A stretch of 45,785 bases of DNA from Candidatus Falkowbacteria bacterium RIFOXYD12_FULL_34_57. Lineage in GTDB: Bacteria; Patescibacteriota; Patescibacteriia; Patescibacteriales; UBA12075. Location: positions 1 through 45,785 of the forward strand of contig MFGN01000015.1 in NCBI GenBank assembly GCA_001780285.1, given 5' to 3'. Of the stretch, positions 1-30,330 are shown piece by piece. The notes under the pieces are model-generated. The model was given only the letters and a program-made list of their open reading frames with translations, was not told the origin of the DNA and made no database searches. Position numbers and translations under genes: made by a program. How positions within the stretch are numbered: position 1 is the first letter of the stretch; each line of letters begins with the position of its first letter.

Positions 1-1
1 A

Positions 2-93
2 TTCTGCCAAAACCATTGCAATATTTATATTTAAACCCCATTTGCATACTTATTGTCCTGCTTCGCAGTCCAATATGTATCTGAACTTATACA
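2..93. repeat. Left arm of a perfect 92-bp inverted repeat. Its reverse complement is identical to 45694-45785. The outer boundary runs off the window.
   Basis: Base-by-base reverse complement of 2-93 equals 45694-45785. The match ends on the inner side at 94 versus 45693 (mismatch). Confidence 0.9.
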
Positions 94-95
94 GA

Positions 96-127
96 CGGCA
101 GATCTTTTGTAGATCTGCCGTTTTTTT
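96..127 (+). terminator. Rho-independent terminator: 10-bp perfect stem cggcagatct/agatctgccg, loop tttgt, then T7.
   Basis: The hairpin plus T-run is read directly. In the minus orientation the T-tract is weaker. Confidence 0.6.
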
Positions 128-134
128 GAATTTT

Positions 135-1226
135 TTACTGATAGAGAAAAACCTCTATCTCAGCCGGGTGTGAACCGGTATATTCCCGAAATCCCAACAC
201 ACCTCCTTCCTGTAACGTTTTGCCCCACTCTGTAGTGAAAATATCTCCAGTTTTTCCGCTTCCGGTTATTTTAGCAACCTTACCGCTTTTCACTTTTACC
301 AAAACTCTCTCTCCTGGGGCAAAAGAATGTGTTGTAGATTTCAATTGCCCGGGATTCATGGTTATGTATTGAATAAGGACGGGTTTAAATTTATGCTGAC
401 CACCGCCGCCGTCAAAATTAAAGTACGGTAATCTCACCTTCCATCTCATCTTATCCCGAATCGCACTTTTCACGCTCTCAGGAGAATTAATGGTCAGATG
501 AGTAAGGATATTGCCGGTAGTATCACAGCGATATTCCTTGCCATCAGGCGGCTCATTAAAACTCAAGCGGTAAACGATTAAGTCATTATTTAGAGCTGCC
601 GACTCATACCAAACATCAGATACACCATAATGAAACAGCTTCGGCGACCGAAGTGATACCCCCCAGGAAATAGTTGTCAGAACAATAGCGCCGATAGTTA
701 TAAATGTAATAGCCTTTTTAGCGCCATAGATATCCGGATAATACTGCTGGGTTGGAAAATATAGGGCGCAGGTAACTATCGGAAATAAACCGGACAAAAG
801 CATTCTCAAAAATTCTACCGTGAATGTATTAAAATACATCCTTAAGATAAACGGCAGACACCAAAAACAGATATATCCCCATAAGCCATAGAGTCCCAGA
901 GCAAGCAATGCCCCCGAGAACTTCTGCAGACTAACCAGAGGATGATCCTTGGAAATCTCTACCTTTTTATCTCCGGCACTATTTTTCATTTTAATCAATG
1001 ACATGGATGATGTTGCATTCACAGCAAACCACCATCCTGCCCACACTACAAATCCGATAAATATCGGGATATTCAGCCATGGAAAAGATTTAAAATTCAT
1101 CCAACCGGTAATCCAATCCGGCCAAGGTATTTGCGGAAAAAATTTAACCGCCAAAGTAATGACAAAAAGCACGATTACCGCATTCCTGACCCACGCTCCG
1201 ATTCTTTGCATTATATTATTATTCAT
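135..1226 (-). CDS. Polytopic membrane protein of unknown function: N-terminal TM helices and a Gly/Lys-rich C-terminal soluble domain.
   Basis: 363-aa ORF with several hydrophobic segments and no recognised catalytic motif. It sits 4 bp from the upstream gene, so probably in an operon. Confidence 0.5.
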   Translation of the reverse strand: MNNNIMQRIGAWVRNAVIVLFVITLAVKFFPQIPWPDWITGWMNFKSFPWLNIPIFIGFVVWAGWWFAVNATSSMSLIKMKNSAGDKKVEISKDHPLVSLQKFSGALLALGLYGLWGYICFWCLPFILRMYFNTFTVEFLRMLLSGLFPIVTCALYFPTQQYYPDIYGAKKAITFITIGAIVLTTISWGVSLRSPKLFHYGVSDVWYESAALNNDLIVYRLSFNEPPDGKEYRCDTTGNILTHLTINSPESVKSAIRDKMRWKVRLPYFNFDGGGGQHKFKPVLIQYITMNPGQLKSTTHSFAPGERVLVKVKSGKVAKITGSGKTGDIFTTEWGKTLQEGGVLGFREYTGSHPAEIEVFLYQ

Positions 1227-16012: not shown

Positions 16013-16043
16013 AATATAAAAGTTAGGAAAAATTCCTAACTTT

Positions 16044-16069
16044 TTTATGTGGGCGCGGTGGGACTCGAA
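16044..16069 (-). repeat. Partial direct duplicate (~26 bp) of the 3' end (T-loop to discriminator plus flank) of the tRNA-Leu(CAG) gene at 16230-16311.
   Basis: ttttatgtgggcgcggtgggactcgaa is present at both loci. The copy lacks the rest of the tRNA. Confidence 0.7.
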
Positions 16070-16229
16070 AGGGCAAGCCCGTCCCGATCATATTGTTTAT
16101 ATTTTATTTTTTATTCAAATTTTATTTTTTTAAAAATTTTACTATATCTAAACATTGCTCATCGTGGTTTCTCAACCCAAAAACACCCACATAAAAAGAA
16201 ACACTCAAAAATGAGTGTTTCTTTTTATG

Positions 16230-16311
16230 TGGGCGCGGTGGGACTCGAACCCACACAAGTTGCCTCACACGCACCTGAAGCGTGCGCGTCTACCAATTCC
16301 GCCACGCGCCC
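16230..16311 (-). tRNA. tRNA-Leu(CAG), type II.
   Basis: Acceptor GGGCGCG/CGCGCCC, anticodon loop TTCAGGT, T-arm GTGGG-TTCGAGT-CCCAC. Confidence 0.75.
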
Positions 16312-16335
16312 ATTATTGCCATCTCTAAATATTTT

Positions 16336-16357
16336 TGTGGACTTAAGGGGAGTCGAA
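16336..16357 (-). repeat. Partial direct duplicate (22 bp) of the 3' end of the tRNA-Ala(CGC) gene at 16524-16597.
   Basis: tgtggacttaaggggagtcgaa is shared with the intact tRNA. The copy is followed by the ggggcgaaagcccc hairpin. Confidence 0.7.
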
Positions 16358-16477: not shown

Positions 16478-16526
16478 CCACATATAATATTCTAACCTGT
16501 GCAGCAGGTTAGAATATTATATGTGG
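16478..16526. repeat. Perfect 22-bp-stem hairpin (loop tgcag) whose right arm overlaps the last 3 nt of the tRNA-Ala 3' end.
   Basis: ccacatataatattctaacctg and its exact reverse complement caggttagaatattatatgtgg. Confidence 0.85.
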
Positions 16527-16597
16527 ACTTAAGGGGAGTCGAACCCCTGACCTCTGCCATGCGAAGGCAGCGCTCTAGCCAACTGAGCTACAAGCCC
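16524..16597 (-). tRNA. tRNA-Ala(CGC).
   Basis: Acceptor GGGCTTG, D-arm GCTCAGTTGGCTAGAGC, anticodon stem-loop CTGCC-TTCGCAT-GGCAG, T-arm AGGGG-TTCGACT-CCCCT. Confidence 0.7.
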
Positions 16598-21016: not shown

Positions 21017-21387
21017 AAAATTATAAAATTAAAAATAATTATATTTTAATAATATCATATCTATTATAAAAATACATTATCAAAAAACTTATATAAAATA
21101 TAACTTAAAAATAATATTATCGTAACACGCTGTATATGGGTATCGGGTATTATTTTTAAAATTTTATTTTAAATATATACTTAATAAAAAAATAAACCGG
21201 TAACCATCATGCACCTCCGGTCGTTGCTCTCTCAAAACCAGTTCAATTCCCCCAAGTATCCAACTAAGTTAAACAAAAAACAACCCTTTTCAAGATTATT
21301 TTTCATTGGAGCACCAAGCCGGATAAAAGTCAGACCTGTTTTTATATGAATATTTTAATTAAAGAAATAGAAAAAATCTTATAACAT

Positions 21388-21845: not shown

Positions 21846-21870
21846 AAAAAGCACCAAAAGGTGCTTTTTT
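21846..21870 (+). terminator. Rho-independent terminator gcacc-aaaa-ggtgc followed by T6.
   Basis: Hairpin plus T-run are read directly. Confidence 0.6.
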
Positions 21871-21880
21871 AATTTTTAAA

Positions 21881-21990
21881 ATCTTTAATCATTTACGGAC
21901 TCTCATCTTTTTACACCATTCCAACAAAAAACAACCCTTTTCAGGATTATTTTTCATTGGAGCGGGTAACGGGAATCGAACCCGTCTATC
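21881..21990 (-). repeat. ~110-bp direct repeat, copy 1: the 3' third of a tRNA-Gly plus ~80 bp of downstream flank containing a terminator-like hairpin. Copy 2 is at 27436-27545.
   Basis: Copy 1 (tcatttacggactctcatctttttacaccattccaac...tggagcgggtaacgggaatcgaacccgt) is near-identical to copy 2 at 27436-27545. Confidence 0.8.
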
Positions 21991-22031
21991 CACCTTGGCA
22001 AGGTGATGTAATAGCCACTATACCATACCCG
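21957..22031 (-). tRNA. tRNA-Gly(GCC). An alternative register would give CCA/Trp; that was rejected because it violates U33.
   Basis: 75 nt with acceptor GCGGGTA/TACCCGC. The anticodon stem TCACC/GGTGG with loop TTGCCAA gives GCC. The gene is paralogous to the tRNA-Gly(TCC) at 27512. Confidence 0.6.
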
Positions 22032-22195
22032 CAAAAATCATAACGAATGCTTAACAATTAATCAACTAAAAACTATTATATATTATAAAATTTTTTTTGG
22101 CAAGAAGTTGACAAAGTTATTAATTTTTGTTATACTTTATTGATACTTTTGGATATTTTAACAATTTAATTTTTAACCAATGGGAGAAATTAATC

Positions 22196-27301: not shown

Positions 27302-27435
27302 AACATTTCTATTAAAATTTTTAATTTGGAGCGGGCAACAGGAATCAAAAAGGCGAAATCCTTATATCCTCAGTAAGCAACATACCCAAAATTGTTTCTG
27401 TTTTACTATGAATATTATATTTTAATCTTAAAAAC

Positions 27436-27545
27436 CTTTGGTCATTTACGGGTTCTCATCCTGTTACACCATTCCAATGAAAAAATAACCCTTTTCAGGG
27501 TTATTTTTTCATTGGAGCGGGTAACGGGAATCGAACCCGTATCTT
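27436..27545 (-). repeat. Copy 2 of the ~110-bp direct repeat (tRNA-Gly 3' third plus flank with the bidirectional terminator hairpin ataaccc-ttttca-gggttat).
   Basis: Aligned by eye to 21881-21990. The tRNA-derived part is identical. Confidence 0.8.
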
Positions 27546-27586
27546 CGGCTTGGAAGGCCAACATAAGAGCCATTATACTATACCCG
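27512..27586 (-). tRNA. tRNA-Gly(TCC), CCA encoded.
   Basis: 75 nt. Anticodon stem TTGGC/GCCGA with loop CTTCCAA. Confidence 0.75.
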
Positions 27587-27652
27587 CAATGTAGTAGAAA
27601 GTTTAAAGTAAAAGTATATAAAGCCAAGGATAATAATAACTTTACCACTAAG

Positions 27653-27726
27653 TCGGAGTGCAGGGATTCGAACCCTGGATCTCATGGTCCCAAACCATGC
27701 GCCCTAGCCAGCTAGGCCACACTCCG
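27653..27726 (-). tRNA. tRNA-Pro(TGG).
   Basis: Acceptor CGGAGTG/CACTCCG, anticodon loop TTTGGGA, T-arm CAGGG-TTCGAAT-CCCTG. Confidence 0.75.
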
Positions 27727-27830
27727 AAAACTGCCCAAGGCAGCAAACAACAAAATACAAGCACCAAATTTCAAACTGTTTGTTATTTGAATTTTGTTAT
27801 TTGTTGTTTTCGCACCAATAGTGCGTCCAG

Positions 27831-27902
27831 TGCCGCGGGTCAGGATTGAACTGACGACACAAGGATTTTCAGTCCTTTGCTCTACCACTGAGCTACCGCG
27901 GC
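27831..27902 (-). tRNA. tRNA-Phe(GAA).
   Basis: Acceptor GCCGCGG/CCGCGGC, anticodon loop CTGAAAA, T-arm GTCAG-TTCAATC-CTGAC. Confidence 0.75.
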
Positions 27903-27991
27903 ATACTTAGTCAAAAGCCCATAAAGTCTAAAGTCTGTAAAGTACATGACTTTTGACTTTATAGACTTTATGGACTTTTCACTATTTTTAG

Positions 27992-28064
27992 TTGCGGGGA
28001 TCGGATTTGAACCGATGACCTCCAGGTTATGGGCCTGGCGAGCTGCCAACTGCTCTACCCCGCT
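27992..28064 (-). tRNA. tRNA-Met(CAT), with a 1:72 A-A mismatch and C33. Initiator, elongator or Ile-lysidine identity is unresolved.
   Basis: Anticodon loop CCCATAA, T-arm ATCGG-TTCAAAT-CCGAT. Confidence 0.65.
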
Positions 28065-28162
28065 ACAATTACCATTCGGGTAATAAACAACAAATTACAA
28101 GCACTAAATATCAACCTGTTTGTAATTTATTTTTTATTATTTACTCGCCCATGGCGAGTCTT

Positions 28163-28236
<74 letters not shown>

Positions 28237-28269
28237 CAAAAATATGTAGCAAGCTAATTTTTTAAAAAC

Positions 28270-28392
28270 ACTAGGATTCGCCCCGTTATTCGACGGGACG
28301 CCATGTCGGATGACATGGCGAACCATGGATCTCTTTCTTGTTAAAGAAGCGCTTTAACCTCCGCCATCTGACGGATGAGCTAATTGCCTTAA
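28270..28392 (-). pseudogene. Degenerate tRNA-Ile-like remnant in the 16S-tRNA spacer: the 5' acceptor/D-stem and an anticodon-arm-like segment interrupted by ~17-nt and ~40-nt insertions, with no 3' acceptor strand.
   Basis: Shares GGCAATTAGCTC and GTTAAAGCGCTTCT-TTAACAAG-AAAGAGATC with the adjacent tRNA-Ile pattern. GGTTCG and CGAATCC are separated by hairpin-forming inserts. Confidence 0.4.
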
Positions 28393-28582
28393 AAAGCAAA
28401 AAATCCACAAAGTCCAAAGTTTATAAAGTGCTATACTTTTGCTTTTGACTTTATGGACTTTAAACTAGTTTATAGTATAACAAAAAAAGACTGAATCAAC
28501 AAGGACCAATCTTTTTTAGATATTAAAGAAAAAGGAACGGTCCCATAAACCGGTTGCGAAAATCGCAAAATGGTTTGGAACT

Positions 28583-28607
28583 AACAGGTGCCAATTAGCA
28601 GCCTTAA
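28583..28607 (-). other. 3' arm of the 16S rRNA processing stem, complementary to the leader segment at 30331-30357.
   Basis: aactaacaggtgccaattagcagcc pairs with ggttgctaattggcgcctgttagcgcc across the 16S gene. Confidence 0.6.
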
Positions 28608-28760
28608 CTTCTTGCGAAATTAAGGACTTTTTTATCCCGAACCAAGATGAATTCTTGTTTCGGCACTCCATCTTGTTTATATCTACACGATTAAACAAGT
28701 TTGATAGAAGCGCGACCAGAAATATCGAAATAGAATTCGAAAATTTCTATGTCTCCCTAG

Positions 28761-30238
<1,478 letters not shown>

Positions 30239-30330
30239 GAAAAGTTTTTTACAAGGTTTACTGTCCTTGTGATATATTTCTAAAAAGAGAAATATATCAA
30301 GTGGTATTTGAAGATTTAAGAAATCTCAAT

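What the first reader, a model, noticed from the sequence alone, without database searches (positions are those of the whole stretch)
2..93. The window is bracketed by a perfect 92-bp inverted repeat that runs off both edges
The reverse complement of 2-93 is base-for-base identical to 45694-45785. The inner boundaries are sharp (mismatch at 94 versus 45693) and the outer boundaries coincide with the window ends, so the repeat is probably longer. Perfect identity over at least 92 bp implies recent duplication or ongoing gene conversion. Such arms could mediate inversion of the whole 45.6 kb segment, which includes the 16S gene. They could also be terminal inverted repeats of an inverted-duplicated mobile element (the right arm abuts the int/rep element). 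A third possibility is an assembly artefact. The left arm is followed directly by a strong plus-strand terminator (96-127), suggesting the arm is transcribed inward.
Basis: seen in the sequence. Interest (0 to 1): 0.7.

Follow-up and report, generated by a model that had tools for sequence, protein, structure and literature searches.

The report
Insertion-sequence copies capping a contig
The perfect inverted repeat at the two window ends is the first 92-93 bases of two oppositely oriented copies of an ordinary 1.1-kb insertion sequence, at which short-read assemblers break the contig; the only unusual thing is that this insertion sequence appears to land just upstream of gene promoters.

Summary
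In detail: window 2-93 is the exact reverse complement of 45694-45785, and position 1 also belongs to the repeat. The repeat is not a structure of the 45.6-kb segment. It is the left end (IRL) of a 1094-bp IS481-like insertion sequence (IS), with TGT...ACA termini, 26/25-bp imperfect inverted repeats, a 5-bp target duplication and one 347-aa DDE (rve) transposase gene. The transposase start codon lies inside both arms and reads out of the window. The window is a whole contig of a Candidatus Falkowbacteria MAG. Every independent assembly of this locus stops inside the IS, with arm lengths of 27 to 139 nt depending on the assembly. Identical IS copies occur at 8 or more other left flanks and 8 or more right flanks that have no int/rep genes. 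The int/rep terminal-repeat idea is therefore refuted, and so is inward transcription of the arm. Inversion of the segment by recombination between the two copies is possible but untested. This is ordinary and of low interest. One by-product: in 15 of 18 distinct insertion sites of this IS and its relatives, the right IS end sits 5 bp upstream of a -35-like hexamer and 28-29 bp upstream of a TATAAT box, always in one orientation. Such promoter-directed insertion is known so far for unrelated Mutator-like elements (TnGBS/ISLre2).

The parts
1..93 (-). Left arm: the first 93 nt of an IS481-like insertion sequence (IS positions 1-93 read on the minus strand). It holds IRL at 93-68, an AGGA ribosome-binding site and the transposase ATG at 47-45. 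The ORF runs off the window start.
   Evidence: It is 100% identical to IS positions 1-93 of the full copy in L013.
45694..45785 (+). Right arm: the first 92 nt of a second, oppositely oriented copy of the same IS. It holds IRL at 45694-45719 and the transposase ATG at 45740-45742. The ORF runs off the window end.
   Evidence: The arm extends to 138 nt in L005 and stays identical to the IS.
93..130 (+). A G+C-rich hairpin followed by a T run, directly next to the left IS end. This is flank DNA between the IS and the stop codon of the 363-aa gene, not part of the repeat. The IS abuts the base of the stem, and the expected 5-bp target duplication would be 94-98.
   Evidence: One search found a 13-pair stem at 93-123 followed by T7. 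That 94-98 is the target duplication is inferred from the 5-bp duplications seen at other copies and was not verified here.
135..1226 (-). Left flanking gene: a 363-aa hypothetical membrane protein with no Pfam match. Its 3' end faces the IS.
   Evidence: OGF25441.1 and three identical records from Candidatus Falkowbacteria MAGs.
44809..45615 (-). Right flanking gene: a 268-aa hypothetical protein of the small int/rep element. It reads away from the IS, and the IS lies 78 nt upstream of its ATG.
41710..44307 (-). Context only, not part of the repeat: a large serine recombinase (41710-43299) and a rolling-circle Rep (43459-44307) next to tRNA-Ser (41744-41833).

Best explanation
The 45.6-kb chromosomal segment of a Candidatus Falkowbacteria genome lies between two copies of one insertion sequence (IS) in inverted orientation. 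Each copy has its left end (IRL) facing the segment and its transposase gene reading away from it. The IS is 1094 bp long, with TGT...ACA termini, a 26-nt IRL, a 25-nt IRR and a 5-bp target duplication. It encodes a single 347-aa HTH + rve DDE transposase that is closest to the IS481 family. All copies seen are 100% identical and sit at many different sites, so the element spread recently by transposition. That explains the perfect identity of the arms. Short-read assemblers cannot bridge a 1.1-kb multicopy repeat, so the contig ends a k-mer's length into each copy. The 92-nt inverted repeat is that leftover. Shown: the identity and extent of the IS, its ends, its transposase, its multiple sites and the assembly dependence of arm length. 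Inferred: that the right-hand copy is full length (only 138 nt were seen), and that the copies are fixed in the population. By-product, statistically shown but with the mechanism inferred: this IS and its relatives insert in one orientation with IRR 5 bp upstream of the -35 hexamer of sigma-70-type promoters. The genes just outside both window ends should therefore be promoter-driven genes reading away from the window.
For: Searches show the perfect 92-nt inverted repeat. Searches show the same segment in NCBI, ENA, JGI and Logan assemblies, always ending inside the arm. Arm length was 27-28 nt in Logan, 55-58 nt in two others, 92-99 nt in the window, NCBI and JGI, and 138-139 nt in MEGAHIT k141. 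JGI contig L013 runs from the left flanking gene through the arm into a complete 347-aa ORF and out at a right inverted repeat; the 1094-bp unit has 0 mismatches in 10 loci; 8 distinct IRL-side and 8 distinct IRR-side flanks were found, with 5-bp duplications TCAAG (on one 45.8-kb contig), ATTTT and TGAGT. Pfam rve (E = 3.7e-14) plus HTH domains; the best NCBIfam match is the IS481 transposase model (E = 2.6e-50) over nearly its full length; the catalytic residues are D189, D247 and E282 with spacings of 58 and 35; the QTDNG and E motifs align to a retroviral integrase core; another contig of the same assembly (k141_108820) begins with the IS right end. Promoter targeting: searches found a -10-like hexamer at flank position 29 or 30 in 15 of 18 distinct sites (P about 5e-17). 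TTG sits at position 6 in 9 of the 17 flanks scored; the 18th flank (L051) has TATTTA there. The IRL-side flanks show no such peak. Same-contig 5-bp duplications occur in L014, L028, L048 and L050.
Against: The far (IRR) sides of the two copies that flank this window were not recovered. No IRR-side flank starting with CCGTC or GCAAA was found, so their target duplications and full length are unverified. The one contig that crosses the left copy (L013) exits into a flank whose duplication partner is a different left flank (L023), so it is either a chimeric assembly path or a real IS-mediated rearrangement. The NCBIfam IS481 score (171.5 bits) is below the curated cutoff (224 bits). For promoter targeting, 3 of 18 sites lack the -10 box at that position, two downstream genes are on the opposite strand, and post-insertion selection could contribute to the pattern.
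Confidence: 0.93

Rival explanations
1. The arms are recombination substrates of a functional invertible segment. Homologous recombination between the two inverted IS copies flips the 45.6-kb segment, which carries the 16S rRNA, tmRNA and tRNA genes, and both orientations coexist.
For: Two identical 1.1-kb repeats in inverted orientation are a sufficient substrate for RecA-dependent inversion (established knowledge). L013 joins the left flank to an IRR flank whose duplication partner is elsewhere, which could be a trace of IS-mediated rearrangement.
Against: No data here show two orientations, because every contig stops in the IS. L013 is a 1.5-kb metagenome contig through a repeat and is more simply a chimeric path. 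The arms are generic ends of an IS with many copies and show nothing dedicated to this segment.
Confidence: 0.1
2. The two IS copies and the enclosed 45.6 kb form a composite transposon that moves as a unit.
For: The formal architecture fits: the IS copies are in inverted orientation and their outer ends would be IRR on both sides.
Against: The enclosed DNA is core chromosome, including the 16S rRNA, tmRNA, 11 tRNAs and glycogen-metabolism genes. It was seen only in this one context across all assemblies, and no outer target duplication could be examined.
Confidence: 0.02
3. The arms are the terminal inverted repeats of a larger mobile element related to the int/rep genes at the right end, with a second int/rep copy beyond the left edge.
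For: The right arm lies 78 nt from the last gene of the int/rep element.
Against: Beyond the left arm lies the transposase gene, not int/rep. The same 1094-bp unit is bounded by its own inverted repeats and target duplications at 8 or more other sites without int/rep. The Rep protein occurs on one contig per MAG.
Confidence: 0.01
4. It is an assembly artefact in the strict sense: one or both arms are chimeric additions that do not exist next to this DNA.
For: The arms sit exactly at contig ends and their length depends on the assembler.
Against: Both junctions (C|TGTATAAG and A|TGTATAAG) are reproduced base for base in many samples and with IDBA-type, JGI, MEGAHIT and Logan assemblies. L013 crosses the left junction into the full IS.
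Confidence: 0.03

Closest known systems
IS481 family insertion sequences (for example IS481 of Bordetella pertussis and ISLxc2 of Leifsonia xyli, which is 1105 bp with a 332-aa transposase)
   Same: About 1.1 kb long, with a single transposase ORF and no frameshift. The transposase is an rve-type DDE enzyme with an N-terminal HTH. Termini are TGT...ACA, the terminal inverted repeats are short and imperfect, and the target duplication is short. The family range is 2-15 bp, mostly 6 bp (PMC10045372; PMC2516522). The best NCBIfam hit is the IS481 model.
   Different: The score is below NCBI's curated IS481 cutoff (171.5 versus 224 bits). The target duplication is 5 bp rather than the usual 6 bp. 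The host is a Patescibacteria/CPR lineage. The apparent promoter-directed, oriented insertion was not found reported for IS481-type elements in the library searched.
TnGBS conjugative elements and the ISLre2 / ISKra4 insertion sequences (prokaryotic Mutator-like DDE transposases)
   Same: They insert upstream of sigma-70/sigma-A promoters at a fixed distance, in a conserved orientation with IRR next to the promoter, and they have asymmetric inverted repeats (PMC3942029).
   Different: Their transposase is unrelated (Mutator-like, not rve/IS481-like). Their distance is 15-17 bp upstream of the -35 rather than 5 bp, and their hosts are different.
IS1202-group elements that target XerCD (dif-like) sites
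   Same: They are relatives of IS481 in transposase phylogeny (PMC10045372) and show site-directed rather than random insertion (bioRxiv 10.1101/2022.12.17.520857).
   Different: The target is a recombinase-binding site rather than a promoter, and the target duplications are longer.
Contig breaks at multicopy insertion sequences in short-read assemblies
   Same: Contigs end a k-mer's length into a repeat, and the same end sequence appears on several contigs. This rests on my own knowledge of de Bruijn graph assembly.
   Different: Nothing differs. This is what the 92-nt arms are.

Membership tests
IS481 family insertion sequence | DDE transposase of the rve (retroviral-integrase-like) type with a D, D, 35, E catalytic triad | tested here: met
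   Pfam rve E = 3.7e-14 and rve_3 E = 1.7e-8. D189, D247 and E282 have spacings of 58 and 35 and are invariant in 12 homologues. The QTDNG...E region aligns to an integrase core, 4pa1.
IS481 family insertion sequence | The transposase matches the IS481 family profile at family level | tested here: inconclusive
   NCBIfam NF033577 is the best hit, at E = 2.6e-50 over model positions 2-283 of 284, but 171.5 bits is below the curated cutoff of 224. The next best is IS3 at 103.8 bits.
IS481 family insertion sequence | A single transposase ORF without programmed frameshift, which distinguishes it from IS3 | tested here: met
   One uninterrupted 347-aa ORF fills the element, at L013:401-1444.
IS481 family insertion sequence | Length of about 1-1.3 kb, with terminal inverted repeats that start TGT and end ACA | tested here: met
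   The element is 1094 bp. IRL is TGTATAAGTTCAGATACATATTGGAC and IRR is TGTATTAGTTCACCACATATTGGAC. Relatives start TGA or TGT and end ACA.
IS481 family insertion sequence | A short target-site duplication (2-15 bp in the family) | tested here: met
   5-bp duplications occur on single long contigs: L014 TCAAG, L028 GACAA, L048 TAATC, L050 TTATA. There are also cross-contig pairs: ATTTT and TGAGT, and ATCTA and TCTCC (read by eye from the flanks, not computed). Not verified for the two copies that flank the window.
IS481 family insertion sequence | Multiple copies at different genomic sites (mobility) | tested here: met
   100% identical copies lie next to 8 distinct left flanks and 8 distinct right flanks.
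Promoter-targeting Mutator-like elements (TnGBS / ISLre2 / ISKra4) | A Mutator-like (p-MULT) DDE transposase | tested here: not met
   The transposase is rve/IS481-like. It is therefore not a member, although it behaves similarly.
Promoter-targeting Mutator-like elements (TnGBS / ISLre2 / ISKra4) | [quoted passage not shown] | tested here: met
   15 of 18 sites have the -10 box at +29 or +30. TTG is at +6 in 9 of the 17 flanks scored. IRR always faces the promoter. The distance is 5 bp, not 15-17 bp.
Composite transposon | Two IS copies bracket the cargo, a common target duplication lies outside the pair, and the unit is found in more than one context | not testable with these tools
   The outer flanks of the two copies were not recovered. 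The segment was seen in only one context.

The most novel reading that the evidence does not exclude
This IS481-like family of Patescibacteria chooses its targets by recognising sigma-70-type promoters, or RNA polymerase holoenzyme bound to them. It inserts in one orientation exactly 5 bp upstream of the -35 hexamer. It would be an rve-type transposase that evolved, independently of the Mutator-like TnGBS/ISLre2 elements, a safe-harbour strategy suited to tiny, gene-dense genomes.
Probability: 0.7. Interest if true: 0.5.

Novelty: new member of a known kind. Interest (0 to 1): 0.2.

Why it matters
For the finding as given, very little. It explains why this MAG contig ends where it does, and it warns that terminal inverted repeats on contigs are usually collapsed insertion sequences. 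It also says that the order and orientation of this 45.6-kb block, which carries the 16S rRNA gene, relative to its neighbours cannot be read from short-read assemblies. The by-product is more interesting. A recently active IS with many identical copies in an ultrasmall CPR genome inserts next to promoters and not into genes. If confirmed, this would be a second, independent origin of promoter-directed transposition in bacteria. It would also give a simple computational handle for locating promoters in uncultured Patescibacteria.

Tried and rejected
- An exact-pattern scan of GTDB genome contigs with 44 nt of the arm found nothing. The species representative evidently lacks these contig ends.
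- The protein-based scan of genome contigs gave one distant relative, at 55% identity, in an Atribacterota MAG. It was not used further.
- Two scans of viral contigs, one with the IRR pattern and one with a transposase alignment, found nothing.
- P0124 was listed in the same 90% cluster as the transposase but is an unrelated 278-aa protein. It is linked only through chimeric protein-level assemblies, P0128 and P0129. Its contigs were nevertheless useful, because they begin with the IS right end.
- I looked for IRR-side flanks starting with CCGTC or GCAAA, the expected partners of the two window junctions. None was present among the 8 flanks recovered.
- I looked for a copy of the tRNA-Ser 3' end that would bound the int/rep element inside the window. 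None was found.
- A sequence search of the PDB gave only weak integrase-core hits.
- The inward promoter-like match in the arm (4-31) is at chance level, 1 found against 0.9 expected, and was dismissed.
- I considered a group II intron, an IS200/IS605 end and an rRNA fragment for the arm before the ORF was recovered. The Rfam scan of the window reported no RNA family overlapping either arm, and the transposase identification rules these out.

Full report
**1. The observation**

Window 2-93 is the exact reverse complement of 45694-45785, at 92 of 92 positions. No other inverted repeat in the window comes close; the next best is 51 nt at 73%. The inner boundary is sharp. Position 1 also belongs to the repeat, because it matches the continuation of the arm seen in longer assemblies.

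**2. The outer boundary is a contig end**

Exact-protein look-ups of the two flanking genes show that the same 45.6-kb segment has been assembled many times.
- It is in NCBI as MFGI01000032.1 (45,790 bp, GCA_001778205.1).
- It is in four near-identical Candidatus Falkowbacteria RIFOXY* MAGs.
- It is also in ENA MEGAHIT assemblies (k141_68503, 45,877 bp), in JGI Rifle metagenomes and in Logan contigs.

In every case the contig stops inside the arm. Arm length depends on the assembly:
- 27-28 nt in Logan.
- 55-58 nt in two other assemblies.
- 92-99 nt in the window, NCBI and JGI.
- 138-139 nt in MEGAHIT k141.

The arms remain identical to each other over 138 nt. The repeat is therefore real and longer than 92 nt, and its visible length is set by the assembler.

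**3. What the repeat is**

An exact scan of JGI metagenome contigs with the outer part of the 139-nt arm found one contig, L013 (1481 bp). It runs from the 3' end of the left flanking gene and its hairpin, through the arm, into a complete 347-aa ORF, and out the other side.

The ORF has these features:
- Pfam HTH domains plus rve and rve_3.
- Its best NCBIfam match is the IS481 transposase model, at E = 2.6e-50 over nearly the full model. The score of 171.5 bits is below the curated cutoff of 224 bits. IS3 is second.
- The catalytic residues are D189, D247 and E282, with spacings of 58 and 35. They are invariant among homologues and align to a retroviral integrase core.

The identical protein (P0001) is on many contigs. 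Comparing ten loci defines a 1094-bp unit with 0 mismatches between copies. Its ends are IRL TGTATAAGTTCAGATACATATTGGAC and IRR TGTATTAGTTCACCACATATTGGAC.

The unit abuts 8 distinct left flanks and 8 distinct right flanks. Its 5-bp target duplications are TCAAG (both sides on one 45.8-kb contig between uvrA and mscS), ATTTT and TGAGT. A second contig of the same assembly that holds the window segment begins with the IS right end.

These features fit the IS481 family as described in PMC10045372 (TGT...ACA termini, target duplications of 2-15 bp, a single DDE ORF) and PMC2516522 (ISLxc2, 1105 bp). The profile score is sub-threshold, so I call it IS481-like.

**4. Anatomy in the window**

Both arms are the IRL end.
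- Left arm, minus strand: IRL at 93-68 and the transposase ATG at 47-45.
- Right arm, plus strand: IRL at 45694-45719 and the ATG at 45740-45742.

Both transposase genes read out of the window. The hairpin plus T run at 93-130 is flank DNA next to the stop of the 363-aa gene (135-1226, minus strand), and the IS abuts the base of its stem. The only inward promoter-like match in the arm is at chance level. The idea that the arm is transcribed inward has no support.

**5. Rivals**

- **int/rep terminal repeats.** This is refuted. The transposase gene, not int/rep, lies beyond the left arm. The IS has its own ends and target duplications at many unrelated sites. Rep occurs once per MAG.
- **Strict misassembly.** This is unlikely, because both junctions recur base for base across samples and assemblers.
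- **Composite transposon.** This is formally possible but implausible, since the segment is core chromosome with the 16S rRNA, tmRNA and 11 tRNAs.
- **Inversion by homologous recombination between the inverted copies.** This is possible in principle but cannot be tested here. L013 joins the left flank to an IRR flank whose duplication partner (TGAGT) is another left flank (L023). That indicates either a chimeric path through the repeat or a real rearrangement.
- **Unrecovered outer flanks.** The outer flanks of the two copies, expected to start with CCGTC and GCAAA, were not recovered.

**6. By-product: promoter-directed insertion**

All 8 IRR-side flanks of this IS carry a -10-like hexamer at flank positions 29-34: TATAAT six times, plus TATATT and TATGAT. 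Most also carry a TTG-type hexamer at positions 6-11, directly after the 5-bp duplication.

I fetched relatives with 67-78% identical transposases (P0078, P0032, P0011, P0030, P0017, P0071, P0098, P0076). Their ends are nearly the same, and on long contigs their 5-bp duplications match: GACAA, TAATC and TTATA.

Results over 18 distinct sites:
- A -10-like hexamer starts at +29 (13 sites) or +30 (2 sites).
- The background rate is 2.7% per position, giving a binomial P of about 5e-17.
- The IRL-side flanks show no such peak.
- The flank consensus is NNNNN-TTGatt-N17-TATAAT, with a TG just upstream of the -10 box in many sites.
- The next gene is co-oriented with the transposase and starts 56-180 nt downstream in most loci. 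Examples are rpsB, clpB, gap, mscS and a pilin gene. The exceptions are L016, L048 and L051.
- The host uses canonical promoters. One lies upstream of tRNA-Ser in the window: TTGACC-N17-TATAAT at 41696-41724.

Random insertion followed by selection would not give a single distance and a single orientation, so targeting is the better reading. Whether the transposase reads the DNA or contacts the RNA polymerase holoenzyme is inference only.

There is a precedent. TnGBS, ISLre2 and ISKra4 elements insert 15-17 bp upstream of the -35 with IRR next to the promoter, but they use Mutator-like transposases (PMC3942029). I found no report of this behaviour for rve/IS481-type elements in the library searched. 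Relatives of IS481 in the IS1202 group do target XerCD sites (bioRxiv 10.1101/2022.12.17.520857).

**7. Verdict**

The finding is a correct observation of an ordinary thing: two inverted copies of a multicopy IS481-like insertion sequence that cap a short-read contig. As given, its interest is low. The IS is a new member of a known family. Its apparent promoter-directed insertion would be a new variant of a known behaviour and deserves a separate, larger test.

Noticed in passing
L014:11049-11082, L016, L017, L019, L020, L021, L023 and L024 (IRR-side flanks), plus relatives L027-L051: The IS and its relatives sit with their right end 5 bp upstream of a -35-like hexamer and 28-29 bp upstream of a TATAAT box in 15 of 18 distinct sites, always in the same orientation. 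This looks like promoter-directed insertion by an rve/IS481-like transposase.
   Followed up: yes
window 41710-43299 (minus strand) and 41744-41833 (plus strand): The 529-aa large serine recombinase ORF runs antisense through the whole tRNA-Ser(CGA) gene, so its last ~40 codons are tRNA-derived. The NCBI record called no gene here. Together with a PF23343 rolling-circle Rep (43459-44307), a 50-aa ORF and a 268-aa ORF, it looks like a small integrated replicon whose far end is cut off by the right IS copy. No second att-like copy of the tRNA end lies inside the window.
   Followed up: partly
window 16042-16069 vs 16222-16249, and 16330-16357 vs 16516-16543: The 3' ends of tRNA-Leu(CAG) and tRNA-Ala(CGC), with a few downstream bases, are each repeated about 180 nt downstream of the gene. 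The Leu pair is 28 of 28 identical; for the Ala pair one search reports only 68% identity of each copy to the Leu reference copy. These could be leftover attachment sites or partial tRNA duplications.
   Followed up: no
window 21867-22034 vs 27420-27589, and 21272-21312 vs 21923-21963: The regions around tRNA-Gly(GCC) and tRNA-Gly(UCC), including about 60 nt outside the genes, are 77-80% alike. A 41-nt terminator-like stretch is repeated at 98% identity 651 nt away.
   Followed up: no
window 27513-30244: The 16S rRNA gene (28761-30244, minus strand, full length, no insertion) is followed by tRNA-Ile, Met, Phe, Pro and Gly. No 23S or 5S gene lies anywhere in the 45.8 kb, so the rRNA genes appear to be unlinked.
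   Followed up: no
proteins P0124, P0128 and P0129; L024:1-1050: A 278-aa cysteine-rich hypothetical protein is filed in the same 90% cluster as the transposase. The only link is chimeric protein-level assemblies that fuse the transposase to this downstream neighbour. This is a database artefact caused by the IS junction.
   Followed up: yes
L037:282-2650: In one relative the transposase ORF has lost its stop codon inside IRR and reads 14 codons into the flank. A second rve transposase gene lies back to back with it, and no target duplication is visible.
   Followed up: no
L013 (Ga0208961_1017675): The only contig that crosses the left IS copy exits into a flank (TGAGTTGC...) whose 5-bp duplication partner is the left flank of L023, not the window flank. 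It is either a chimeric assembly path or an IS-mediated rearrangement in that sample.
   Followed up: partly
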